Shown here: piece by piece, positions 83 through 23,352 of the stretch | Layout: every line of letters begins with the position of its first letter | How positions within the stretch are numbered: position 1 is the stretch's first letter | NCBI GenBank assembly: GCA_964016885.1 | Contig: OZ024760.1 | Span: forward strand, 29,636,001 to 29,700,000 | Source: Eledone cirrhosa | Lineage: Eukaryota | Reading direction: 5' to 3' | DNA length: 64,000 nucleotides | Position numbers and translations under genes: made by a program | The notes under the pieces: model-generated | Seen by the model: only the letters and a program-made list of their open reading frames with translations | What the model was told of the DNA's origin: nothing | Database searches by the model: none

Positions 83-268
83 CTAGGGCGGGTAAAATTC
101 CCGAGATCCATGGACGAGTTCTCTCCAGCGGTCTCTGTCCCTCATTATTGCTGCCATGTCCTACAGACCAGTGTCTGTCCTTAGGACATCAACATACGTT
201 AACCTTGGTCTTCCTCTTCCAGTGTGTCCATGTAGGGGCTCCCACAGGAGCACTGAGTGCAGTGTCAA
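83..268 (-). mobile_element. 3' terminal fragment of an RTE/RTE-X-like non-LTR retrotransposon (degenerate)
   Basis: Minus-strand translation SVLLWEPLHGHTGRGRPRLTYVDVLRTDTGL*DMAAIMRDRDRWRELV matches the RTE C-terminal pattern (GRGRP...DR..WR); internal stop; ends in (TA)n. Confidence 0.75.
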
Positions 269-408
269 CATATATTTATATTTATAAGTAGAAGTGGTAT
301 TTAATTTGTTGGAAGTCCGACAAACATAAATGTTTATAACTGATTTAGAGCACCCAACAGTTTATTGGAGTAAATATTCAATGATATTAAATAAATGGAA
401 ACTATATT

Positions 409-472
409 TATTTTATTATATATATTTCAAGGGTACCAAGACAACATTGGTACGCTTTCATCAGATAAAATA
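409..472 (-). ncRNA. Type I hammerhead ribozyme motif, family A, intact core
   Basis: Minus strand reads TATTTTAT-CTGATGA-aagcgtacca..tggtaccctt-GAAA-TATATA-TA-ATAAAATA: 8-bp stem I, canonical core, stem II, palindromic stem III, AUA cleavage triplet. Confidence 0.85.
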
Positions 473-522: not shown

Positions 523-583
523 TATTTTATCTGATGAAAGCGTACCAATGTTGTCTTGGTACCCTTGAAATATATATAAAATA
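523..583 (+). ncRNA. Hammerhead ribozyme motif, family A, 3-nt deletion at the cleavage site
   Basis: CTGATGA 531-537, GAAA 567-570, followed by TATAT-ATAAAATA (3 nt shorter than the intact copy). Confidence 0.7.
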
Positions 584-1495: not shown

Positions 1496-1990
1496 GAGGT
1501 TATATTTAATTTGCTGGGATTCAACAAGCTTAAACATTTTTATAACTGATATAAAACACTCAACAGTTTATGGAGTAAATATTCAATATATTAATAAATG
1601 GAAACTATATTTATAAAACCATAATTATTTTATTATATATATTTCAAGGGCAACCAAGACAAATTTTGGTGCGCTTTCATCAGATAAAATACAAATTTGT
1701 TTTATAAATATTGACATACCCGCATAAAGACAACCTTAACGGTTGAGGTTCGCTGGAAAGTGGAAAAAATATTTTATTGAGGGTGATTCAAAGTTATGAG
1801 TAAGTATGCAAATGAGTGTCAGACAAATTGAAAAAACATCGGTTTATTTAAATTAAACTGTTGGAAGAAAATAGTGAAAGGGAGAGAGAAAAGGGAGAGA
1901 GAAAAAATATTGAAAGGGAGAGAGAAAAAATAGTGAAAGGGAGAGAGAAAAAATAGTGAAAGGGAGAGAGAAAAAAAAGAGAAAGAGAGA
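1496..1990 (-). repeat. Inverted pseudo-LTR of the PLE (1584-1990) plus ~90-nt tail extension (1496-1583)
   Basis: High-identity inverted match to ~11165-11542; the extension matches 290-379. Confidence 0.88.
1626..1691 (-). ncRNA. Type I hammerhead ribozyme motif, family A, intact core
   Basis: Minus strand: TATTTTAT-CTGATGA-aagcgcaccaa..ttggttgccctt-GAAA-TATATA-TA-ATAAAATA. Confidence 0.85.
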
Positions 1991-2384
1991 AATCGGACTC
2001 GTTTATAAGAAGACTTAGATGGCGTGCTTTTCATTTCGATAAAAAAATCAGATGAAAAAGAAAATAAATCCAACTTCGATAGGATCTTCAAATCCAAGAA
2101 AAATCCACCTACCAACAAATTATTAATGGAATTTGAAAATGAAATTATTTCAATCATACAAAACATTAAATTTAAGAAAAACCATTTTGTAGGCCAGGAT
2201 TACCTCAAAAGTCTTAAAAATAATATAGAAAATTTTGAAAGAACTGAAAAAATTCTTGTTAAATCTGATAAAACCAACAATCTATATGGAATGCAATAAT
2301 AATCTTATATTGAAGGAATTAAGGAAAAATTACAAGAGAGCAACCAATGATGACCTTGAAATACTAAATAGAGAAGCTAATAAT

Positions 2385-2507
2385 TGTTTCTACGTTAGGA
2401 ACAAGGCCAGCAATTACCCAGTGTATTACTGGTACTTTATTTTATCGACCCCGTAAGGATGAAAGGCAAAGTTAACCTCGGCAGAATTTGAACTCAGAAT
2501 GGCAACG
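2385..2507 (-). mobile_element. tRNA-derived SINE family 1, 5'-truncated copy
   Basis: Matches four other copies; 17-bp TSD ATAGAGAAGCTAATAAT at 2368-2384 and 2508-2524. Confidence 0.9.
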
Positions 2508-3440
2508 ATAGAGAAGCTAATAATGCAAAGATTAGGCATCGAAAATAGGACTGAACCCTTTATACCTAAAAAACCAAAAATTAATTTGAAAGACCACAAA
2601 ATAAATTTTGAAATAGAATTACCAGTTAGACTTATATCACCATCTAAATCGAACCTAGGCATAGTTAGCAAAAATATCTTAGATAGAATCATACCGCAAC
2701 TTAAAGAAATATCTTACTTAAAATTATGGAATGGGACTAATGAAGTTATAGACTGGTTTAAGGACAAACAATATAAGCATAACAATAAATTCATTCAATT
2801 GGATATTGCAAATTATTACTCATCTATCACTCCTAATTTACTTAATAAAGCCCTTACATACGCATCTAAATATACTGATTTATCTAGCGATGAAATCCAC
2901 ATCATCTTAACTGCACGTAAAACCTAAATTAAATTTAACAACCATCTTTGGACTAGAGCAGATAGGGATAACAATTACGATATTACTATGGGATCATCGG
3001 ACTCGGCGCAATTAACGGATCTCGTGAGGATTTTTATTAACAATACATTACATAGAAAAATACCGGAGATGACCGGTGGTTTATATCGTGATGATATGCT
3101 ATTGCTAATTGAAAATAATAATAATTGTGAAATCAATAGAAAAAGAAAATCAATAATACAATTTTTTAATAGCTTTAATCTTAAGGTAGAGAATAATTAT
3201 AAAATAGTTAATTTTTTAGATGTAACATTAAACCTTAATACTGGTCTATATTATCCATTTCATAAAATCAATGAGAATTTAAACTATGTTAACTTTAATT
3301 CCAATCACCCGAGATCCGTTAAGAACACTATCGTAAATTCCGTACAGCAACGTATTTCTAGAATTTCAGCGAATAAAAATATATTTGAAGATAAGGCACA
3401 GTATTATAACGAAGCTTTAAGTAGAGCAGGCTATAATAAT

Positions 3441-3628
3441 TGTTTCTACTTTTGGCACAAGGCCAGCAATTATCCCAGTGCATTACTGGTACTTTATTTT
3501 ATCGACCCCGTAAGGATGAAAGGCAAAGTTAACCTCGGCGGGATTTGAACTCAGAATGGCAAGGGCCGTAACTCTATGCGTCAAAGCAGGGCATCCGACC
3601 CTCTACCGATACTGCCAACCCACCGCCC
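3441..3628 (-). mobile_element. tRNA-derived SINE family 1, full length
   Basis: Minus strand has A-box-like TGGCAGTATCGG, B-box GAGTTCAAATCC, central GCCTTTCATCCTTACGGGGTCGATAAAATAAAGTACC (Meta-domain-like, from recall) and ATT tail; 14-bp TSD CAGGCTATAATAAT at 3427-3440 and 3633-3646. Confidence 0.92.
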
Positions 3629-3904
3629 AGATCAGGCTATAATAATGAAATTAAATACATCGACAATAAAGATACCCCAATTAACCATAATTATAATTAT
3701 AATTATAATAAGAAAGCTAGCACAAACTCTAAAATTAAAAGAAGAAATAGAACTAGAAATGTGTTATGGTTCGCTCCTCCTTTCTCATTAAGTATTAAAA
3801 CTCCTTTAGCTAAACTATTTTTTAAAGCTCTCGATAATTGTTTCCCCAAGACACATAGGTATCATGCAATCTTTAACAGACATACAATTAAACTATCATA
3901 TTCT

Positions 3905-4087
3905 TTCAACAGCAGAAATGTAGAGATGAAATATACGTTTATTTTTTGATGTAGCACAAACAATGGTGTTGTACAGAGGCTGGTTTCTGGCGTGGGATCC
4001 GTCGGCTTTCCAGTGGCTGTCTGTCTTTTCTTTCTGGCGTTCTCAACCGGCGTTGTTCTATCAAGGAGCGTGAGGCGTCTTACTACA
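3905..4087 (-). repeat. 3' LTR, missing ~52 bp of its U5 end
   Basis: Near-identical direct repeat of 9193-9373; starts TGTAGTAAG on minus. Confidence 0.92.
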
Positions 4088-4312
4088 GTACCTCGAGCCA
4101 GATTTTCAAATTATCGAAAATCGATGTCATTACTCACATGTGGAGTAAGATGGCGAACAATGCAACAAGGGGGAGCTATCCGCTCTAGCAAAAATTGAAT
4201 CCAGAACAAGGATTTGAAAAATGTTAAAAAAAAAACGACATGCATGCATAAAAAAACAAGGCAAAGAAAAAGCAGAAACACAGAGGCAAAAAAAAGGTGC
4301 AGCTAACATAGT

Positions 4313-7300
4313 CTAAATATAGACGGTGCTGCAAAATTTTTTGGGCCAGTGGACCCTACGACCTGAACGGGTCGTGGTCTTGTAACGTGGCGATGGTGGT
4401 GGTGTAGGGACAGGCGATGATGGTGGTTCAGGAACAGTCGTTCGCTCAACAGGCAAATACGAAGGGGTTCGTGGATCAGGAACCACAGCGTCCGTGTCAA
4501 GGTGCGCCTGCTTAAGTCTGTCTAATGTAACTGTCTCCCTGGACCCCTTAATATCTAACGTGAAATGCTTAGCCGAGCGCGCTAAGACACGGTAAGGTCC
4601 AGTGTAAGGCTGTGTGAGCGGGGGCTTCACCGTATCATTCCTTACAAAGACATGCGTCCACGAGGCAATATCCCTCGGGACAGCAGTCTTGACAGTTTGT
4701 TTCCTAGTGTCCATTGGCGGCAAATCCTGGAAATAGGAGCGCAAACGGGACACGTAGGAAGCGTGATCTTGGGCATCAAGATCGATAGGGGCAAGCATTT
4801 GCCCGGGCAACGTCACAGGGGCACCGTACAGTACTTCGGCCGGTGAAAATCCAAAGTCGACCTTCACCGTTGACCGAATCCCTAGTAGCACAATAGGGAG
4901 GTACTCGCTCCAATGCGCCGAGTCCATTGAGGCCATTAAGGAGGCCTTCAGTTGGCGGTGAAAACGCTCCACCATACCATTCGAAGCGGGATGGTATGCC
5001 GTAGTTCTAATGCGTTTAGCACCAATTAATTTTGACAGCTCGAGGAAAAGGCTCGACTAGAACTGTCATCCACGGTCGGTAGTTATTGTGGATGGAACTC
5101 CATAACGAGAGATCCATCCAGACACAAGAGCACGTGCTGTTGTCTCCGCGGTGATGTTTTTCAAGGGGATGGCCTCAGGCCATCTCGAAAAACGGTCAAT
5201 GACGGTAAGTAGATAAGAAAAACCATCGCTGACAGGCCAAGGTCCCACTATGTCAATATGAATATGTGAAAAACGCGCATCTGGGTTAGCAAAGGTACCC
5301 AGGGGAGCCTTGACGTGTCGATGGACCTTTGATCTCTGGCAAGCGACGCAGGAACGGCACCAAACAGCAATTTCACGCCTCATATTTGGCCAGAAAAATC
5401 TAGCTGATATGAGCTTTGCTGTGGCAGAAGATCCTGGATGCGAGATACAATGTAATCCCAGAAACACGGTCCGACGATGATTCTCTGGAACGAAGGGCCT
5501 AGGCACGTCCAAAGAGATGTCGCAGAGAATTTGGCCAACTGCAGTCGACAGAGGCAAGTATTTCATCTCGCAATTCGCAAACTCGGGCGATGTGACATCC
5601 AATGACTCAAGGGGAGGCTGATACGCAGCCAAACGAGTCAGGTCTATGTCAGAGGATGACGAGATCGCTGTCACGAGTAAGCGGGACAAAGCATCGGCCG
5701 CTGTATTTAGTGAACCCGGAATGTTCTGGATATCACTCGTATATTGCGAGATGAAATCAAGGTGTCTCGTCTCTCTGGGCGAGTATTTATCAGCCTTCGC
5801 TCTCAAAGCAAAAGTCAATGGTTTATGGTCAGTGAGGATAGTAAATTGTCTACCCTCTAGCACATGTGAAAAATGTTTCACGGCCAAATAGATGGCTAAA
5901 AGCTCTCTTCCAAAGGTGCTGTAGCGCGTCTCAGCAGGATTTAGCTTTTTGGAAAAAAACTCCAGCGGTTGCTGGTAACCATTGATGTTTTGCTGTAGTA
6001 GTACTGCGCCCACAGCGATATCCGATGCATCAACACAAAGCGTTAGCTTTGCACCGGGTACCGGGTGAGTCAGTAACGAAGCATTAGCCAAAACAGTTTT
6101 GGCGTGCTGAAAATCAGCAAGTTGAGTGTCTGTCAAAGAAATATCTTTGTTCTTCCTCCGACAATTTTTCAAAATTTCTGTCAGGGAGAAAAGCAATTTT
6201 GCACAATTTGGCACGAAACGCCTATAAAAATTAACCAGACCTAAGAACTGGCGTAACTGACGTAGTGAGGTCGGTGGAGGCAAATCCTCTATGACCTTAA
6301 CTCGCTCAGGCCGGGGTCGAATACCGTCAGCATCGATGATGTGACCCAAGAAAGTCAGTGACTCAGCACCAAAAACACATTTGGGTGCATTAAGCTGCAC
6401 GTTATACGCCTTCAATCGGCGGAAAAGAAGATTCAAATGGTGCGTATGCTGCTCAGGAGAAGAACTAGCAATGAGCAGATCGTCAATATAGGTATAGACG
6501 AAATCGAGGCCGCGAGTAACCTCATCCATAAACCGCTGAAAAGTACTAGCGGCGTTCCTTAATCCGAACGGCATAGTCAAAAACTCGAAAGACCCAAACG
6601 GCGTAACTATAGCCGTTTTTGGAATGTCATTTTTATGGACAGGAATTTGATGGTACGCACGAATTAAATCCAGTTTGGAGAATATCTTGCATCCCTGCAA
6701 CAAAGACGCAAAGTCTTGCAGATGAGGGATAGGATAACGGTCCGGTACCGTTATCGAATTCAGGCGTCGATAATCTTCAGTAGGTCTCCAATCGCCATTC
6801 GCTTTCGGTACCATGTGTAATGGGGACGCCCACGGGCTCGTGGACGGACGAATAATCCCCATTTGCAGCATATGATCAAACTCTGATCGTGCTGCTTTGA
6901 GTTTGTCCGGAGGCAAGCGACGAGGACGAGAGAAAACGGGAGCACCAGTTGTAGATATGAAGTGCTCCGTGGTATGAGTTGGTTCATCAAATCGAAAATT
7001 TCCCCGAGTCAGTTGCGGGAACGAGTTCAACAACGCATGGAAAGGATCACCGGTGTTAGCAAGAAAAAATGTCGGGCTAACCATTGGAACTCCTGCTGCC
7101 TTGCCAACAACAGTTAATCCCGTGATGCCATCAATTAGGCGTTTACCACGAAGGTCCACCGTCAATGAAAAATGGTGGAGAAAATCCGCGCCTAGAATCG
7201 GATACGGCAAGGCAGCGACAGTAAATATCCATTTAAACTCGCGCCGCAGATTACGAAACTGCAAAGGTAACGAGATTTGTCCGAAAGTTCGAATCGGCGA

Positions 7301-7507
7301 ACAATTTACTGCCTGCAACTCAATAGGCGTCTCAGGGGGAGTCTCCTTCATACAACACACAGGCCATACGGAACAAGCTGCACCTGTGTCAACCAGAAAA
7401 GCTCTACCTGACAGCAGGTCCTCAATGAAAAAGTGGCGGTTAGATGTTTCGCAGAGCGCACTATCCGCCGTTAGTGACTCTGGTCGTCTTTTCCCTCGTA
7501 AGCACAA
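4313..7507 (-). pseudogene. pol: Gypsy pol (protease, RT, RNase H, integrase) with two in-frame nonsense codons in integrase
   Basis: LVDTGA, YIDD, DAS..ELLAI..TDH, HHCC finger (H..SHPG..CVAC), TDRG*QF*S (TGA 5066-5068, TAG 5057-5059), same frame continues to NGMVERFHR and YTGPYRV. Confidence 0.93.
7452..7495 (-). promoter_or_regulatory. Putative -1 ribosomal frameshift signal
   Basis: G GGA AAA heptamer (7495-7489) in the gag frame, pol in the -1 frame, hairpin CAGAG-T-CACTA..TAGTG-CG-CTCTG 6 nt downstream. Confidence 0.75.
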
Positions 7508-8250
7508 GGAGGCCTACAACGGGCGGCTTTTTTACCATATCTTTCATGGTAATAACAATATGGTGTTCCTGGTGTGTTGGAAGGGCTACGGTGGCGAGAA
7601 GTTGAATAACGTCGTGAGTGGCTCGTCTGCCGTCCAAAGGACCTGAATTCCTTGCACAACTCCGCCATTTGACGAGTCATGGCTTCCATTGCGGTGATTA
7701 AATTGCCATCAGACGCTGATGAGCGTGATTGAGGAAGAGAAGAGGAAGCAACGAACTTTGGCTTCGAAGTGTCTCTCTTCGTCACCTCTACAATTTTGTC
7801 AGCAGAGACAGCAATGTGATCCAGGGTATTCACCTCTAGCATATGGGCTAGGATCGCCTGTACCTCTTGAGGTAGGCGAGAGAAGAACAATTGCTTCAGG
7901 AAAGGGCTATCCTGATTTTGGGAATCGCTCAAATCCCGCAAATGCCGGAGAAAAGCGGTAGGGGTCCTGTCACCTAATCGTTCGTCCTCGATCAGTGACC
8001 GAAAACGACTCTCTACCGACTTACAATTCCTCCTCAAAATCTCGCCCTTCAAAAACTCATACGTCAAGTCAGAGGGGGGGGGGTCTGTAATTAGGTCTTG
8101 GACCGAATCTGCTAGATTAGGGGGAAGGCCGCTAATCAGTACAGCGAGGCGCTGGTCAGATTCGGTCTTACAGACCGTAAAATACGCCTGTAACTGGGCA
8201 ATCCACATCTTAGGTTTTCCAGTAAAGGCGGGCAAATGTGGCACATTCAT
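7471..8250 (-). CDS. gag: Gypsy gag polyprotein (259 aa)
   Basis: Intact ORF with [19 protein letters not shown] and [18 protein letters not shown] (CHCC) motifs. Confidence 0.9.
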
Positions 8251-9120
8251 GTTAACTTTTATAAAAAAAATATATACATATATATCTAAACAGCAATTAA
8301 TGTACCCTTGTACAGTGAAAAGAGAACAGCCAATATTGAGAAAAAGTTAAAGGGCAAAAAGAAACAGACATTCAAAACATAAGGAAATATGAAAAATACA
8401 TAAAATACAGATATATATCTTTTAAAAAAAAATTTTCCTTCAACGTCTGTCCCCTCGCGATGCTTCAACGAACCAGCCAAATCAAATAAGGTAAAAAAGA
8501 GGAGGAGAAAAAAAAATGTTTGTTTTTTTAAAAAAAATATATCCGCGTTGGATATCAACAAAGGTAACCGTTGGTAAAAAATCCCTTAGAAAAAGGTAAG
8601 GCATGTATATCCCCATGCTGGGCAGTTATGTTCACAAAAAAAAGTTTAGTCTCTTCTCTCTTGATCAGTCATGGAACACACACGCAATTCAAAAAATGTG
8701 TCCGTTACAAAACTGGGACGGAACGCAACGCCACCTTGGAAAAATACACTTTTTTCTTTTTTCTTCTGTAAGTTGCGAAAAAGTTGGCAACGGAAATGGA
8801 ATATTCAAGTGAATAAAAAAAAATTGCTCTAAATTATCGACACGAATGAATCGTTTTGATATTTCCGATGTGTGGTGGTTTGCGTCGGTAAGGCTATGAA
8901 GCTGCCACTCACTATTCCCTGTTTTGGTCAGTGGTTAAACAATGTTGTCGCTGCTGCTGCTGTCGTTGTTGTTGTCGAGTGTAGCAAAAAGTTTTTGAAA
9001 TACTACTAATTTTTCAATAATTTTAAAAGGAATATTTTTTTATTTTCGCAAGTTGCGAAAAAAAGGCCGGCGCGTGGCAATAAAAGTTCAACTGAATGAA
9101 AAAGAAAGGGCTGCGTTAAA

Positions 9121-9138
9121 TTCTTACGTCGGTCACCA
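9121..9138 (-). promoter_or_regulatory. Primer binding site, tRNA-Trp-like
   Basis: TGGTGACCGACGT 1 nt after the LTR end; equals the tRNA-Trp complement TGGTGACCCCGACGT minus 2 C. Confidence 0.7.
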
Positions 9139-9139
9139 C

Positions 9140-9373
9140 TTTAGCAGTATTAGTTATAGATGTTATCGAGATACGAGTGACATAATAATTATTTCAACAG
9201 CAGAAATTAGAGATGAAATATACGTTTATTTTTTGATGTAGCACAAACAATGGTGTTGTACAGAGGCTGGTTTCTGGCGTGTGATCCGTCGGCTTTCCAG
9301 TGGCTGTCTGTCTTTTTTTCTGGCGTTCTCAACCAGCGTTGTTCTATCAAGGAGCGTGAGGCGTCTTACTACA
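9140..9373 (-). repeat. 5' LTR (~234 bp)
   Basis: TGTAG...CTAAA (terminal CA apparently mutated), followed by the PBS. Confidence 0.9.
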
Positions 9374-9979
9374 GGTATCATTCAATCTTTAACAGACATA
9401 CAATTAAACTATCATATTCTACCACTATATTCTAGCACAGAATATAAATAGAATCAATAATAGAAACTTAAAACTTAACCAGAATAGCATTAATACCTCT
9501 AGCAATATCCAATACAATGATACTGTTCCCAATAATATAAATTCTGATAAATGTAATTGTAGAATTAAACCTAACTGTCCTTTAAATAATAACTGTTTAG
9601 TTAAAAATGTAGTATACAATTGCAATGTCAAAACCAATGATAATTCCTTTAACTATGTCGGCTCTACTTCGACTGACTTCAAATCTCGTTTCAATAACCA
9701 TAAATGTTCCTTTACGAATATTGGTAAAACATCTTCAACCTCTTTATCCAGCTTATTATGGAACTTAAAATCCAAGAATATAAACTATTCTTTATCTTGG
9801 AATATTGTCTCCAAAGCACCAGCCTACAGAAACACAGCTTTATCCAAATTTTGCAGCTATGCGTTGAAGAAATATTCTTTATACTAAAATGTAAGAACTC
9901 TATTAATTTGCGTAATAACCTATTTGGTTCTTGTAAACATTGTTTAAATTCAACTTTTAGATATATATATAAAATGTAA
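9374..9979 (+). pseudogene. PLE linker and GIY-YIG endonuclease (frameshifted)
   Basis: Manual translation CNCRIKPNCPLNNNCLVKNVVY..YVGST..FKSRFNNHKCSF..TSLSSLLWNLK..W.I..C.LCVEE..CKH; stop at 9977-9979. Confidence 0.9.
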
Positions 9980-11432
9980 TATATGGTTAATCTTCCTTCC
10001 ATAATGTTTTCTCTATGCAAACACCTATAATCTCATTCCTCAGATTATATCCATATATGGTTCAAGAATTTAATATAATTCTAATTTTAATAACTTCGTA
10101 AATATATAAAATACACTTATTAAATTTTTAATTTACTCCTTAAAACCTTTACTTTCTAATATTTCTACTTCATAAATATACTTTATATTATTACACTTAT
10201 CAATCCTACCTCCAAAAAATATATCATAACCTTTTTGAATGACTACTTGAAATTCTTTTAAGAAAAGGTTTTCGAAAATTTTAAAAATTTTCTTTGAAAG
10301 ACTTTTTGAAAGTTTTTAAAAAAAATTTTTTGAAAAAACTTTTTGAAAGAATTTTTTGAAAGATACGGAAAAACTATTATTTTCATATCTTCCAATATTT
10401 TTATATCTTCCAATATTTTAAACATTTTTAATATTTATGTATTTTCATATATTTCCAAATACTTCTATATATTTGGAATAATGTATGGTTTGTTTTAATT
10501 ATATTTTAAGATGAATTTTTATAACTTCTTATAACTTTTTAAGAGATTTTTATGTATCCTTGGAGTCATTTGAGTTTTTTTTTAAATCCCTTTTAAACTT
10601 CCTTTAAACTTCCTTATTGTTTTTTATAATCTCAATTTTTATAGTTTTAATTTATAGTCTGAATTTTTAAATGGTTTTAGTATATACTTCTAAATAAGTA
10701 CTTAATCCTTTGTAAACTCTCGTAATTTTTCGTAATCTTTGGAATTTTTTAGGCTAAATATAATTTTGCCAAACTTACTTTAATTAAAAAAAAACAAAAC
10801 AAAACAATACTAAATATTTTTCCAATGTAAAATACTATACATTTAAATAATTTATCATCTATAGCATAACATACCCATCTAAATCCATATATTATTAATA
10901 CATCTTAATATATTTTAAATACTTCTTATTTTTAATTAAATTTAACAGTATTTTTATTTATTCTTAATTTAATTTTTAACTTATTATAAATATAGTATTA
11001 GGTTTAATATAAACATAGCATAATGAACGTTATATTTACGATTTGAGTATCCATCCCTGGAAAAGCTCATTTCTTCGCTCGCTCTTCATAAATTTTCTTC
11101 ACTATCACTCTGCATAGTCTTGTCTCTCTTTCTTTCTCCCTCTTTATCACCCTTTTTCTTTCTTCTTCTCTCTCTTTCTCTTTTTTTTTCTCTCTCCCTT
11201 TCACTATTCCTTCTCTCTCCCTTTCAATATTTTCTCTCTCTCCCTTTCTCTATTTTCTTCCAACAGTTTAATTTAAATAAACCGTTGTTTTTTCAATTTT
11301 TCTGACACTCATTTGCATACTTACTCATAACTTTGAATCACCCCCAATAAAATATTTTTTCCACTATCCAGCGAACCTCAACCCTTAAGGTTGTCTTTAT
11401 GCGGGTATGTAAATATTTATAAAACAAATTTG

Positions 11433-11500
11433 TATTTTATCTGATGAAAACGCACCAAAATTTGTCTTGGTTGCCTTGCCCTTGAAATATATATAAAATA
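11433..11500 (+). ncRNA. Hammerhead motif, family A, in the 3' pseudo-LTR; 3-nt deletion at the cleavage site
   Basis: CTGATGA 11441-11447, GAAA 11484-11487, then TATAT-ATAAAATA; TTGCC duplication in stem II. Confidence 0.7.
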
Positions 11501-11538
11501 ATTATGGCTTTATAAATATAGTTTCCATTTATTAATAT

Positions 11539-11588
<50 letters not shown>

Positions 11589-11589
11589 C

Positions 11590-11769
11590 AACAAAGGTAA
11601 AACTTGAACCGTTAAGGTCTCGTTCCTGGATATGTCAATATTTATAAAACAAACTTTGTATTTTATCTTTATCTGATGAGAGCATACCAAAGTTTTGGTA
11701 CCCTTGAAATATATATAATAGAATAAATATGGTTTTATAAATATAGTTTCCGTTTATTAATATCATTGA
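11590..11769 (+). mobile_element. Solo PLE pseudo-LTR 3' end with hammerhead motif (11665-11725)
   Basis: CTGATGA 11673-11679, GAAA-TATATA-TA-ATAGAATA; same 3' terminus (..TATCATTG) running into (AT)n. Confidence 0.8.
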
Positions 11770-12876: not shown

Positions 12877-13001
12877 TGTTTCTACTTTTGGCACAAGGCC
12901 AGCAATTACCCAGTGTATTACTGGTACTTTATTTTATCGACCCCGTAAGGATGAAAGGCAAAGTTAACCTCAGTGGGATTTGAACTCAGATCGTAAAGGG
13001 A
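12877..13001 (-). mobile_element. SINE family 1, 5'-truncated
   Basis: Matches 3441-3560 and 56505-56630. Confidence 0.9.
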
Positions 13002-15493: not shown

Positions 15494-15810
15494 GATATCC
15501 ACGGTAAGTTGTGGGGTCTAGTCTGCATGAAGATCTCAATGTAATCCATATGTTGAAAATGTTGTAGGTTAAAATAAATCCCGGAAAACAATAAAACATT
15601 AAAAGGAAAACAGTCATGATATAAGTTAAAACAATGAAATAAAAAATCAAGTCATTAGAGATATACTTCACTGCTTTACGATCGTTTCTAGGTGATGATA
15701 ATACATTGTAACTATACTTTGTTATCGATCTATGTAAGGTTAGTTACAAAATATCAGATAAAGAGAATATTTACTTACATGCATATCACCCGCTGTTGTC
15801 AAAAGCAATA
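15489..15810 (-). mobile_element. Hammerhead-bearing pseudo-LTR-like repeat, family C (left copy, may extend to ~16200)
   Basis: 15614-15803 is the reverse complement of 16707-16894; ends in (AT)n at 15420-15488. Confidence 0.65.
15670..15809 (-). ncRNA. Candidate type I hammerhead with U3-A8 core variant and long stem II
   Basis: ATTGCTT-TTGACAA-[~107-nt stem II with GGTGAT/ATCACC and GTAACTA/TAGTTAC]-GAAA-CGATCG-TA-AAGCAGT. Confidence 0.6.
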
Positions 15811-16212
15811 ATAATTTTATTCAAAATTAGTAGTAAATTAGTATTATGTTTAGTTCTATGACCTTATTTGGAGGTAGCTGAAGAACTAACCAATCAGATT
15901 GTGTTTTCCATGATGTTAAGATGAAAAATAATTCACTTTAGTTGAGGTCATGACACTTTGAAAGGAATGGTTGAATGGTGTTAATAATAGAATTGCCATA
16001 AAAAATCTATTAGGAAGAGAGGGATTGTCAAATTGATAGTTGAATGTATCTGGTATAGTGAAGTTTAAAAGGAATGTAAAAATTAAATGTTGAGTTGTGT
16101 TGTATGGAGTTTTTAGTTGAATATAAATTAAAGTCATAGGAAAGATAGTATATTAAAAGATGAAAATTATAATAAGATAATGAAATACAGTAATACAATA
16201 ATATAATATAAT

Positions 16213-16399
16213 TATTTCTACGTTTGGCACAAGGCCAGGAATTACCCACTGCATTACTGGTACTTTATTTTATCGACCCTGTAAGGATTAAAGGCAAAGT
16301 TAACCTCGGCGGAATTTGAACTCAGAATGGCAAGGACCGTGACTCTATACGTCAAAGCATGGCGTCGGACCCTCTACCAATACTGCCAATCCACCGCCC
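16213..16399 (-). mobile_element. SINE family 1, full length
   Basis: Matches 3441-3628 end to end. Confidence 0.9.
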
Positions 16400-16706
16400 T
16401 CTATAATAATATAATATAATGTAACACAATATAGTACGGTGTGGTAAATTGCACTTAGTATAATACAGCGTATGATATGCCTTAAAATACTTTCAAGTAT
16501 GTCTATGTATAAATAAGCAAATACATGTTGACATAGTCAAAACGCATAAATTTCATAGATCACAAAGTGCATATACCCACATTATAGATAGAGGTATAGT
16601 TATATTGATACTCAATTAAAAATATACATATGCATAAATAGATGCAAACATATACATACATCTATACATGTGCACACAATCATATACACATATATTTATA
16701 TATATA

Positions 16707-16894
16707 TTTGACAACAGCTGGTGATATGCATGTAAGTAAATATTCTCTTTATCTGATATTTTGTAACTAACCTTACATAGATCGATAACGAAGTATAGTT
16801 ACGATGAATTATCATCACCTAGAAACGATCGTAAAGCAGTGAAGTATATTTCTAATGACTTGATTTTTTATTTCATTGTTTTAACTTATATCAT
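16707..16894 (+). repeat. Inverted copy of the family C repeat, 5'-truncated at the ribozyme core
   Basis: TTGACAA 16708-16714 ... GAAACGATCGTAAAGCAGT to 16840; preceded by (TA)n. Confidence 0.8.
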
Positions 16895-19099: not shown

Positions 19100-19430
19100 A
19101 GTCAGACATGGACATCTGGAGAGTCAGACAGACAGATGGACATCTGGAGAGCCAGACAGACAGATGGACATCTGGGGAGCCAGACAGACAGATGGACATC
19201 TGGAGAGCCAGACAGACAGATGGACATCTGGAGAGCCAGACAGACAGATGGACATCTGGAGAGCCAGACAGACAGATGGAAATCTGGGGAGCCAGACAGA
19301 CAGATTGACATCTGGAGAGTTAGACAGACAGATTGACATTTGGAGAGCCAGACAGACAGATGGACATCTGGGGAGCCAGACAGACAGATGGACATCTGGG
19401 GAGCTAGAGACACAGATTGACATCTGTTCT
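19100..19430. repeat. 28-bp minisatellite GACAGACAGATGGACATCTGGAGAGCCA, ~11-12 copies
   Basis: Direct inspection. Confidence 0.95.
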
Positions 19431-20130: not shown

Positions 20131-20162
20131 CTGAAATGAAATAAAGTCAAGCCTGTAAAGCC

Positions 20163-23056
20163 TGACACAGTTGGGTGACTCTGATACAGCTAAAGACATG
20201 TCAGTCAGTTTGGTGACATGTCTGTCAGTTGGGTGTCTGTGACACGGTTGTATGACTCTGGTACAGCTAAAGACATGTCTGTGACACGGTTGTATGACTC
20301 TGGTACAGCTAAAGAAATGTCTGTGACACGGTTGTGTGACTCTGGTACAGCTACAGCCATGTCTGTGACACAGTTCGGTGACTCTGGTACAGCTACAGCC
20401 ATGTCTGTGACACAGTTGTGTCACTCTAATACAGCTACAGCCATGTCTGTGACACGGTTGTGTGACTCTGGTACAGCTACAGCCATGTCTGTGACACGGT
20501 TGTGTGACACTGGTACAGCTACAGTCATGTCTGTGACACAGTTGTGTGACTCTGGTACAGCTAAGACATGTCTGTGACACGGTTGTGTGACTCTGGTACA
20601 GCTAAGACATGTCTGTGACACGGTTGTGTGACTCTGGTACAACTAAGACATGTCTGTGACATGGTTCGGTGACTCTGGTACAGTTAAAGACATGTCTGTG
20701 ACACGGTTGTGTGACTCTGGTACAGCTACAGCCATGTCTGTGACACGGTTGTGTGACTCTGGTACAGCTACAGCCATGTCTGTGACACAGTTGTGTGACT
20801 CAGGTACAGCTACAGCCATGTCTGTGACACGGTTGTGTGACTCTGGTATAGCTACAGTCATGTCTGTGACACAGTTGTGTGACTCAGGTACAGCTACAGC
20901 CATGTCTGTGACACAGTTGTGTGACTCTGGTACAGCTACAGTCATGTCTGTGACACAGTTGTGTGACTCTGGTACAGCTACAGTCATGTCTGTGACACGG
21001 TTGTGTGACTCTGGTACAGCTAAGACATGTCTGTGACACGGTTCGGTGACTCTGGTACAGCTAAGACATGTCTGTGACATGGTTGTGTGACTCTGGTACA
21101 GCTGAGACATGTCTGTGACACGGTTGTGTGACTCTGGTACAGCTAAGACATGTCTGTGACACAGTTGTGTGACTCTGGTACAGCTACAGCCATGTCTGTG
21201 ACACAGTTGTGTGACTCTGGTACAGCTACAGTCATGTCTGTGACACAGTTGTGTGACTCTGGTACAGCTAAGACATGTCTGTGACACGGTTGTGTGACTC
21301 TGGTACAGCTAAGACATGTCTGTGACACGGTTCGGTGACTCTGGTACAGCTAAGACATGTCTGTGACATGGTTGTGTGACTCTGGTACAGCTAAGACATG
21401 TCTGTGACACGGTTGTGTGACTCTGGTACAGCTAAGACATGTCTGTGACACAGTTGTGTGACTCTGGTACAGCTAAGACATGTCTGTGACACGGTTCGGT
21501 GACTCTGGTACAGTTAAAGAAATGTCTGTGACACGGTTGTGTGACTCTGGTACAGCTAAGACATGACTGTGACACAGTTGTGTGACTCTGGTACAGCTAA
21601 GACATGTCTTTGACACAGTTCGGTGATTCTGGTACAGCTAAGACATGTCTGTGACACGGTTGTGTGACTCTGGTACAGCTAAGACATGTCTGTGACATGG
21701 TTCGGTGACTCTGGTACAGTTAAAGACATGTCTGTGACACGGTTGTGTGACTCTGGTACAGCTACAGCCATGTCTGTGACACAGCTCGGTGACTCTGGTA
21801 CAGCTACAGCCATGTTTGTGACACAATTCAGTGACTCTGGTACAGCTACAGCCATGTCTGTGACACAGTTGTGTGACTCTGGTACAGCTACAGCCATGTC
21901 TGTGACACAGTTCAGTGACTCTGGTACAGCTACAGCCATGTTTGTGACACAATTCAGTGACACTGGTACAGCTACAGCCATGTCTGTGACACAGTTGTGT
22001 GACTCTGGTACAGCTAAAGACATGTCTGTGACACGGTTGTGTGACTCTGGTACAGTTAAAGACATGTCTGTGACACAGTTCGGTGACTCTGGTACAGCTA
22101 AGACATGTCTGTGACGCAGTTGTGTGACTCTGGTACAGCTAAGACATGTCTGTGACACAGTTCGGTGACTCTGGTACAGCTAAGACATGTCTGTGACACA
22201 GTGGTGTGACTCTGCTACAGCTAAGACATGTCTGTGACACAGTTCGGTGACTCTGGTACAGCTACAGCCATGTCTGTGACACAGTGGTGTGACTCTGGTA
22301 CAGCTGCAGCCATGTCTGTGACACAGTTGTGTGACTCAGGTACAGCTACAGCCATGTCTGTGACACGGTTGTGTGACTCTGGTACAGCTACAGCCATGTC
22401 TGTGACACAGTGGTGTGACTCTGCTACAGCTAAGACATGTCTGTGACATGGTTGTGTGACTCTGGTACAGCTACAGCCATGTCTGTGACACAGTTGTGTG
22501 ACTCTGGTACAGCTACAGCCATGTCTGTGACACAGTTGTGTGACTCAGGTACAGCTACAGCCATGTCTGTGACACGGTTGTGTGACTCTGGTACAGCTAC
22601 AGCCATGTCTGTGACACAGTGGTGTGACTCTGCTACAGCTAAGACATGTCTGTGACATGGTTGTGTGACTCTGGTACAGCTACAGCCATGTCTGTGACAC
22701 AGTTGTGTGACTCTGGTACAGCTACAGACATGTCTGTGACACAGTTCGGTGACTCTGGTACAGCTAAGACATGTCTGTGACACAGTTGTGTGACTCTGGT
22801 ACAGCTACAGCCATGTCTGTGACACAGTTCGGTGACTCTGGTACAGCTACAGCCATGTCTGTGACACAGTTGTGTGATTCTGGTACAGCTAAGACATGTC
22901 TGTGACACAGTTGTGTGACTCTGGTACAGCTAAGACATGTCTGTGACACAGTTCGGTGACTCTGGTACAGCTACAGCCATGTCTGTGACACAGTTGTGTG
23001 ACTCTGGTACAGCTACAGCCATGTCTGTGACACAGTTGTGTGACTCTGGTACAGCT
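20163..23056. repeat. 41/42-bp minisatellite TGTCTGTGACACAGTTGTGTGACTCTGGTACAGCTACAGCCA, roughly 69 copies
   Basis: Variants ending CTACAGCCA (42), CTAAGACA (41) and CTAAAGACA (42) are interspersed. Confidence 0.97.
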
Positions 23057-23352
23057 CAGATGAAATAAAGTCATTCAGTAAAGCCGTGACTAGTTGTTGT
23101 TGTTGTTGTAGTACCATTACAGTTGTAAAAGTGACGGGATGTTGTGGCAATCATGGTTATATCAACTTATTTCATGTTATACAATATAGAGAGAAAAGAA
23201 GGAGAGAGAAAGAAAGAGTGAAACAGAGAGTCAGATAGATTGGGGGGGGGGGTATTCAGAGTGATAAAGAGAGAGAGAGAGGGAGAGAGGAAGAAAAAGA
23301 GAGTGATAAAGAAGGAGAGTTAGAGAACGAGAGAAAGTGATGGGTTTGTTAC

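What the first reader, a model, noticed from the sequence alone, without database searches (positions are those of the whole stretch)
567..583. Same 3-nt deletion at the ribozyme cleavage site in two independent insertions
Seen: plus-strand copies at 567-583 and 11484-11500 read GAAA-TATAT-ATAAAATA, while their inverted partners (409-428, 1626-1645) and the solo copy (11706-11725) read GAAA-TATATA-TA-ATAAAATA or -ATAGAATA. The two pairs belong to different subfamilies, so the loss probably arose twice, both times in the 3'-terminal copy and at the scissile AUA. Inference: a scar from RT jumping across self-cleaved RNA ends or from imprecise circularisation, i.e. a genomic footprint of ribozyme action during transposition. 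Alternative: ordinary slippage in ATAATA.
Basis: partly seen in the sequence, partly recalled or inferred. Interest (0 to 1): 0.72.

Follow-up and report, generated by a model that had tools for sequence, protein, structure and literature searches.

The report
Deletion hotspot at Penelope ribozyme cut
About 1.6% of one variant of a jumping gene's predicted self-cutting RNA motif have lost the same three bases at the predicted cut site, in either arm of an insertion; this likely reflects copying slippage in a short AT repeat rather than a scar of the RNA cutting itself, although the site is hotter than a matched control and a cutting scar is not excluded.

Summary
The five copies are minimal type I hammerheads in the terminal repeats of a Penelope-like retroelement with Hydra-clade motifs. 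Genome-wide the 3-nt loss matches 105 copies against 6,565 intact ones, in many subfamilies, almost always in one arm only, so it recurs independently. It is not confined to the 3'-terminal arm (21 of 96 are tailed arms; baseline 31.5%, p=0.046). It is a real hotspot: about 14-fold above an equally old ATAATAAA control. But a variant with the same predicted cut site and equally stable stem I, differing by one base (ATAGAAT), shows 5 against 5,623, the control level, and loses 9 nt instead. Both preferred deletions use 4-nt repeats that straddle the scissile bond, and 5' truncations do not pile up at the cut. Best reading: microhomology slippage on an uncut template (0.6). A reverse-transcriptase jump over cleaved RNA stays possible (0.2): deleted copies do not look older than intact ones (weak test), and they lean to one arm. 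The scan noted related cut-site footprints in other genomes, as truncations, not deletions.

The parts
567..583 (+). GAAA, stem III palindrome and stem I 3' strand of hammerhead copy 1, with the 3-nt deletion
523..583 (+). Minimal type I hammerhead, 3'-terminal arm of insertion 1 (stem I 5' strand 523-530, CTGATGA 531-537); element ends near 620 in (TA)n
409..472 (-). Intact hammerhead, inverted tailed arm of insertion 1; predicted cut between 417 and 416; this arm has its own 14-nt deletion just downstream between ATAAATAT repeats
256..383 (-). Tail extension of insertion 1 (approximate ends), present only on the inverted arm
   Evidence: tail motif used
1626..1691 (-). Intact hammerhead, inverted tailed arm of insertion 2 (inverted repeat about 1576-1985 against 11152-11550)
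2009..3949 (+). Broken reverse transcriptase region of the Penelope-like element (DKT motif in 2009-2299, YRDD in 2928-3548), interrupted by stops and two short repeats
   Evidence: atlas neighbours carry HTH_animal and RVT_1; Pfam direct: no hit
3903..9373 (-). Nested LTR retrotransposon (RT, RNase H, integrase) splitting the element; ends approximate; bystander
9408..9887 (+). C-terminal GIY-YIG endonuclease remnant with CxCX5C linker
   Evidence: Pfam PF01541 E=0.0008, below its curated cut-off
11433..11500 (+). Hammerhead of the 3'-terminal arm of insertion 2 with the 3-nt deletion (11484-11500) and a 5-nt duplication in stem II; ends near 11542 in (TA)n
11665..11725 (+). Solo intact hammerhead of the ATAGAAT variant, with a 6-nt duplication in front of the core

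Best explanation
The 3-nt loss is a real, recurrent deletion at the predicted hammerhead cut site of a Penelope-like retroelement, and it likely forms when a polymerase slips between two overlapping ATAA repeats on an uncut template, without needing the RNA to have cleaved. Shown: the minimal hammerhead places a (TA)4 palindrome (stem III), the UA triplet end and an A-rich stem I side by side, giving an A/T-only tract of over 20 bases that is rich in indels of many sizes; the deletion chosen follows the best local repeat (3 nt with ATAAAAT, 9 nt with ATAGAAT). Inferred: the polymerase pauses or detaches at this junction and re-pairs 3 nt further on. Open: whether it is the element's own reverse transcriptase or second-strand synthesis at insertion (within-family age and arm data lean this way) or later host replication and repair (between-family scaling leans this way); I put these at about even. 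The deleted allele is predicted to lose the in-register core and is rarely passed on.
For: One base four places downstream of the cut changes the rate from 105/6,670 to 5/5,628 (p=3e-22), although both variants are equally old (substitution at the -1 base about 1.4% and 1.2%) and stem I is predicted equally stable (-2.4 and -2.5 kcal/mol). In the ATAGAAT variant a 9-nt deletion between AATA repeats appears instead (5 of the first 100 of 504 deletions, none in ATAAAAT), in copies with different stem II. Both 4-nt repeats straddle the scissile bond, while a jump between cut ends has only the terminal ATA, common to both variants. Junctions with foreign sequence are about 134 at the cut, 62 two bases upstream and about 226 at +5 in a pool 2.4 times larger (hand tallies): at most a twofold excess. 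A second hammerhead family with the same ATAATAAAATA and a far stronger predicted stem III (-8.3 against -1.0) has an 8-fold lower rate, 33/17,057, and is about threefold younger; its ratio of this deletion to 1-nt loss in the A run (33:18) equals that of the family here (about 105:55). One deleted copy sits in an insertion whose two arms share a broken core (L042). In the anole element uncut RNA is the dominant substrate and no RNA reads ended at the cut (PMC11167929).
Against: The rate is about 14-fold (this family) and 5-fold (second family) above an ATAATAAA control with the same 4-nt repeat, after age matching; sequence alone explains this only if the longer A run and long A/T tract matter, which I could not test with an exact control. 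In the ATGAAAT variant, with only a 2-nt repeat, this deletion is still the commonest (25 of 91, against 18 for 2-nt loss in the TA repeat). The matching 3-nt gain was 0 of the first 100 of 551 insertions. Deleted copies are not older than intact ones (ratios 1.05 and 0.85; 49 of 96 exact against 48.4%), unlike substitution controls (1.43; 15 of 40), though that difference is not significant (p=0.19). They lean to the 3'-terminal arm (p=0.046). Both low-rate variants have a G-U pair in stem I, so lower cleavage cannot be ruled out.
Confidence: 0.6

Rival explanations
1. Scar of self-cleavage: the reverse transcriptase runs off the 5' end of the cut RNA and jumps to the upstream fragment by pairing its terminal TAT with the fragment's terminal AUA, merging the two ATA triplets.
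For: Predicts exactly this product, and also the 1-nt loss seen at the site (5 of 100; 13 of 91). Excess over the control. No age bias and a lean to one arm. Ranking of the four variants of this family follows Watson-Crick versus wobble pairing in stems I and III (about 1.6, 0.5, 0.11, 0.09%). R2 elements show junction deletions and added bases where the RT runs off ribozyme-cut RNA (PMC3774820 passages).
Against: ATAGAAT variant at control level despite the same ends and predicted stem energy; no sharp truncation peak at the cut; no mixed junctions with random added bases among 100 insertions listed; 5-nt and 7-nt versions using the other ATA triplets almost absent (0 of 100, one 5-nt case); the family with the best predicted ribozyme has a lower rate; uncut RNA dominates in the one element tested in vitro.
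Confidence: 0.2
2. The element's endonuclease, which targets (TA)n, re-cuts the TATATATA of existing copies, and end-joining by the nearest microhomology removes 3 nt (or 2, 4 or 9).
For: Copies insert in (TA)n; the anole enzyme cuts AT-rich DNA including its own pLTR; the total deletion load around the TA repeat is similar in both variants (about 2-3% of copies) but split differently; families without the TA repeat are lower.
Against: The second family lacks the TA repeat yet this deletion is 33 of its 77; no direct evidence of re-cutting; an age bias would be expected.
Confidence: 0.12
3. Imprecise circularisation of the cut RNA, then copying across the joint.
For: Hammerhead retrozyme RNAs of animals are circularised, probably by RtcB (PMC7229834 passages); circles were proposed for Penelope-like elements (PMC4209133).
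Against: Trimming before ligation should not depend on a base four places downstream; copies here are inverted or truncated, not head-to-tail monomers cut at this site; no RNA data could be examined.
Confidence: 0.03
4. A deleted master lineage, or gene conversion between copies, spread one old event.
For: A few insertions have it in both arms (L120; L031/L032; pairs visible).
Against: The partner arm also carries it in 1 of 32 aligned pairs; it occurs on many stem II backgrounds and all large contigs.
Confidence: 0.03
5. Assembly or sequencing error in an A/T-rich tract.
For: Would be age-independent, single-arm and context-dependent.
Against: Short-read contigs match the deleted form exactly at depths of 128-575.
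Confidence: 0.02

Closest known systems
Minimal hammerheads in pLTRs of metazoan Penelope-like elements (Cervera and De la Pena 2014, PMC4209133; parts 1-2 of 4 read, supplements not seen)
   Same: Type I order, long stem II, small palindromic stem III predicted to work as a dimer, thousands of mostly solo or inverted copies.
   Different: The parts read describe high variability but no recurrent deletion at the cut site; cleavage of this family is untested.
Hydra clade of C-terminal endonuclease Penelope-like elements (Craig et al. 2021, PMC8557442; passages only)
   Same: DKT motif, CxCX5C linker, no cysteine pair inside the GIY-YIG core, (TA)n targets, canonical hammerhead, inverted 5' copy and one-sided tail.
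   Different: No tree was built; the open reading frame is broken; the tail here is about 90-130 nt rather than 30-40.
Poseidon element of Anolis carolinensis (Frangieh et al. 2024, PMC11167929; parts 1-2 of 4 read, supplements not seen)
   Same: Tail on one arm, AT-rich targets, hammerhead in the pLTR.
   Different: Other clade; there the ribozyme is protein-assisted and dispensable for insertion in vitro; genomic indels at the cut were not reported in the parts read.
R2 retrotransposon 5' junctions set by HDV-like ribozyme cleavage (PMC3774820; passages only)
   Same: Precedent that a ribozyme cut leaves a genomic footprint through RT run-off and microhomology.
   Different: There the footprint is at the element's 5' end, common and heterogeneous; here it is internal, rare and a single product.

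Membership tests
Minimal type I hammerhead of Penelope-like elements | CUGANGA and GAAA core flanking stem II | tested here: met
   All five window copies; Rfam gathering scan found nothing
Minimal type I hammerhead of Penelope-like elements | Stem I closing after a UH triplet end; short palindromic stem III | tested here: met
   8-bp stem I and TATATA palindrome in intact copies; variants keep pairing through G-U. Single-strand folding does not give the active fold
Minimal type I hammerhead of Penelope-like elements | Self-cleavage at the predicted bond | not testable with these tools
   No raw RNA reads available
EN+ Penelope-like element, Hydra clade | RT followed by C-terminal GIY-YIG endonuclease | tested here: met
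   Order of remnants; GIY-YIG E=0.0008, below cut-off; RT supported by YRDD motif and atlas neighbours only
EN+ Penelope-like element, Hydra clade | DKT motif, CxCX5C linker, no CCHH, (TA)n insertion | tested here: met
   Read by eye from translations against the description in PMC8557442; (TA)n flanks
EN+ Penelope-like element, Hydra clade | Phylogenetic grouping with Hydra RTs | not tested
   No reference sequences on hand
Ribozyme-cleavage scar | Independent of sequence beyond the cut ends | tested here: not met
   105/6,670 against 5/5,628
Ribozyme-cleavage scar | 5' truncations pile up at the cut | tested here: not met
   At most twofold over neighbours (hand tallies)
Ribozyme-cleavage scar | Made at insertion, so independent of copy age | tested here: inconclusive
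   No age bias within the family, low power; rate scales with age between families
Ribozyme-cleavage scar | Rate above matched non-cut sites | tested here: met
   About 14-fold and 5-fold over one control whose A run is one base shorter
Microhomology slippage deletion | Deletion size and rate follow the local direct repeat | tested here: met
   3 nt with ATAA, 9 nt with AATA; exception: ATGAAAT variant

The most novel reading that the evidence does not exclude
The deletion is a fossil of hammerhead self-cleavage in living cells: in one to two percent of insertions the Penelope-type reverse transcriptase crossed a cut RNA by jumping on a 3-nt match, and the per-variant rates (1.6% down to 0.09%) are a genome-written read-out of how well each ribozyme variant cuts.
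Probability: 0.2. Interest if true: 0.65.

Novelty: new member of a known kind. Interest (0 to 1): 0.33.

Why it matters
Whether Penelope-like hammerheads cut in vivo, and what for, is stated as unclear in PMC8557442 and PMC11167929. This genome holds over 38,000 copies of this motif family in natural variants that differ by single bases, which makes the question cheap to test: two RNAs differing at one position have an 18-fold different deletion rate. If slippage is the cause, it is a warning that indels at hammerhead cut sites are expected from the motif's own repeat structure and are not proof of ribozyme action. If cleavage is the cause, it is direct genomic evidence for in vivo activity and for template jumping by a telomerase-like enzyme.

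Tried and rejected
Rfam scan: no family at gathering score. Repeat finder was swamped by a satellite. Pfam and PDB sequence searches did not recognise the RT remnant; comparing it with the nested element's RT was uninformative. Search for RNA runs gave only contigs with 4% of words; nothing on cleavage ends or circles. Laying X23/X24 on the intact arm did not list the deletion at the 1% threshold, as expected from its 0.5% share of all variants. A search for a high-copy non-ribozyme repeat with the exact ATAATAAAAT context found only further hammerhead copies. The first control candidate turned out to be a second hammerhead family and was used as such. The control actually used lies in a repeat that has its own CTGACGA...GAAA about 115 nt upstream in 10 of 16 copies seen; I read the control site as a hairpin loop, not its cut site, but did not prove this. 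A divergence script was faulty and its numbers were dropped. Broken cores among focal copies did not differ (6 of 79 deleted, 7 of 74 intact) and say little, since most are later mutations. A fold-back (quasi-palindrome) step with the downstream TTTTATA was considered; it fits the ATAAAAT excess but could not be tested. Rows dropped: 5 of the 105 matches were not listed by the tool; 4 of the 100 inspected are not true 3-nt deletions (L052, L096, L128, L142); one duplicate (L032) was removed in some tests; copies with gaps or truncation were left out of the substitution counts (72 of 95, 70 of 77, 35 of 40 used); the intact sample came from the first 75 Mb of one contig and holds a few repeated or mispaired loci in the arm test.

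Full report
Observation. The two deleted copies differ in stem II and in the bases after the gap, each matching its own inverted partner, so the loss arose twice. The gap can slide within ATAATAA and so cannot be pinned to one side of the predicted scissile bond. Short-read contigs from one sample match the deleted form exactly, so the allele exists outside this assembly.

What the element is. The repeat is the terminal repeat of a Penelope-like retroelement in an animal genome of 3.0 Gb. Between the inverted arms at about 1576-1985 and 11152-11550 lie a broken RT with DKT and YRDD motifs and a GIY-YIG remnant with a CxCX5C linker, split by an LTR retrotransposon. These motifs, the (TA)n targets and the hammerhead fit the Hydra clade as described in PMC8557442 (passages); I built no tree. 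The ribozyme is a minimal type I hammerhead: 8-bp stem I, CUGAUGA, long stem II, GAAA, a TATATA palindrome and a predicted cut after TATATATA, as in PMC4209133 (parts 1-2 of 4). Rfam does not call it. Cleavage is predicted, not shown.

How common. Exact patterns give 105 deleted against 6,565 intact copies of the ATAAAAT variant; 4 of 100 inspected are not true 3-nt losses. They fall on many stem II backgrounds, and the partner arm shares the loss in 1 of 32 aligned pairs, so it recurs and is seldom inherited. Among the first 100 of 504 deletion alleles in this 15-base tract I counted by hand 21 of this kind, 17 and 9 losses of 2 and 4 nt in the TA repeat, 11 single losses in the A run, 5 single losses at the cut, 6, 5 and 5 losses of 5, 4 and 9 nt, and 21 others. 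Among the first 100 of 551 insertions about 44 were an extra TA and none was the matching 3-nt gain. The whole tract is unstable, and this is its commonest deletion.

Arm test. 21 of 96 deleted copies carry the tail against 2,069 of 6,565 intact ones (p=0.046). In pairs, the (TA)n-anchored arm was deleted 17 times and the tailed arm 10 times (hand tally, p=0.25).

Sequence test. The ATAGAAT variant has the same predicted cut, the same ATA on both sides and the same upstream stem strand (20 of 25 copies), with equal predicted stem energy. It has 5 deleted against 5,623 intact copies (p=3e-22) and is of similar age. It instead shows a 9-nt loss between AATA repeats (5 of 100), on different backgrounds and with an intact partner in the one pair seen. 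A jump between cut ends can use only the terminal ATA, which both variants share; the 4-nt repeats that predict both outcomes cross the scissile bond and need a continuous template (inference). Estimated rates for the other variants are about 0.5% (TATGTATA with ATAAAAT) and 0.11% (ATGAAAT), from hand tallies.

Control test. Dividing by substitutions at the same base to match age: this variant about 101:91, a second hammerhead family 33:85, the ATAGAAT variant 5:66, and an ATAATAAA site in another repeat about 18:228. In the same subfamily the neighbouring AATAAT lost 3 nt once against 18 times at the cut. The control has one A fewer, 5 of its 14 listed cases lie close together, and its repeat has hammerhead-like boxes 115 nt away, so it is imperfect. 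In the ATGAAAT variant the 3-nt loss leads (25 of 91) with only a 2-nt repeat; this is the result slippage explains least well.

Truncation test. If the RT often met cut RNA it should often stop there. Junctions with foreign sequence number about 134 at the cut (33 of the first 100 of 405), about 62 two bases upstream (of 82) and about 226 at +5 (37 of the first 100 of 611, in a pool about 2.4 times larger) (hand tallies). That is at most a twofold excess, much of it next to TA-rich flanks. Among 119 non-focal copies in fetched loci, 14 lacked a full CYTGAAA anchor and showed no pile-up at the cut.

Age test. Later mutations should favour older copies. Substitution controls do lean so (ratio 1.43, interval 0.90-2.29; 15 of 40 exact downstream). 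Deleted copies do not (1.05, 0.70-1.66; arm divergence 0.85, 0.65-1.11; 49 of 96 exact against 3,177 of 6,565), but the contrast is not significant (p=0.19). Between families the rate rises with age: the second family is about threefold younger and eightfold lower, with the same ratio to slips in the A run. Timing is therefore unresolved.

Mechanism. The minimal hammerhead itself builds the hotspot: palindromic TA repeat, UA triplet end and A-rich stem I make ATAATAAAA inside a long A/T tract. A polymerase copying it likely re-pairs 3 nt ahead. In the one Penelope-like element studied in vitro, uncut RNA is the main substrate and no RNA reads ended at the cut (PMC11167929, parts 1-2 of 4), which fits. 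A jump over cleaved RNA, for which R2 gives a precedent (PMC3774820, passages), would survive if the wobble variants cut much less.

Novelty. I found no report of such a deletion in six searches (listings, plus passages of PMC4918200 and PMC7229834 and part 1 of 5 of 10.64898/2026.07.22.740005); the library lacks most subscription papers and I saw no supplements. The element and ribozyme are known kinds; the quantified hotspot and the one-base switch are new detail. Earlier scan notes on other genomes describe truncations at such cut sites; I did not verify them. Verdict: real feature, probably slippage, worth a simple bench test; interest 0.33.

Noticed in passing
window 384-408 (-), 11470-11480 (+), 11660-11672 (+): Three further repeat-guided indels in the window's five copies: a 14-nt deletion in the inverted arm of insertion 1, a 5-nt duplication in stem II and a 6-nt duplication before the core.
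   Followed up: partly
genome-wide: At least 38,579 intact copies of this hammerhead end, 17,024 of a second family with a TGCGCA stem III, and a third related family; stem III stays palindromic across families.
   Followed up: partly
L270-L274: Recurrent 9-nt deletion joining GAAA to stem I, seen only in the ATAGAAT variant.
   Followed up: partly
L081:1190-1340 and similar: The control repeat (16,828 copies) carries CTGACGA...GAAA boxes about 115 nt upstream of the control hairpin; it may be the rearranged hammerhead family noted earlier in this genome.
   Followed up: no
window 3903-9373 (-): LTR retrotransposon with long open frames and matching terminal repeats, nested between RT and endonuclease of the Penelope-like element.
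   Followed up: partly
window 2390-2500, 3440-3630, 12880-12990, 16215-16400: Four copies of a short interspersed repeat beginning near CACAAGGCCAG, two of them inside the RT region.
   Followed up: no
window 23520-64000: Over 40 kb of a TAATG-type satellite with 7-base variants and extreme strand skew.
   Followed up: no
window 20140-23060 and 19100-19400: Minisatellites of about 32-33 and 27 bases.
   Followed up: no
window 15616-15820 and 16690-16894: 205-nt inverted repeat, 94% complementary, 869 nt apart; possibly a small DNA transposon.
   Followed up: no
The AATTAT subfamily is over-represented among deleted copies (38 of 96 against 17 of 77 intact), without looking older.
   Followed up: partly
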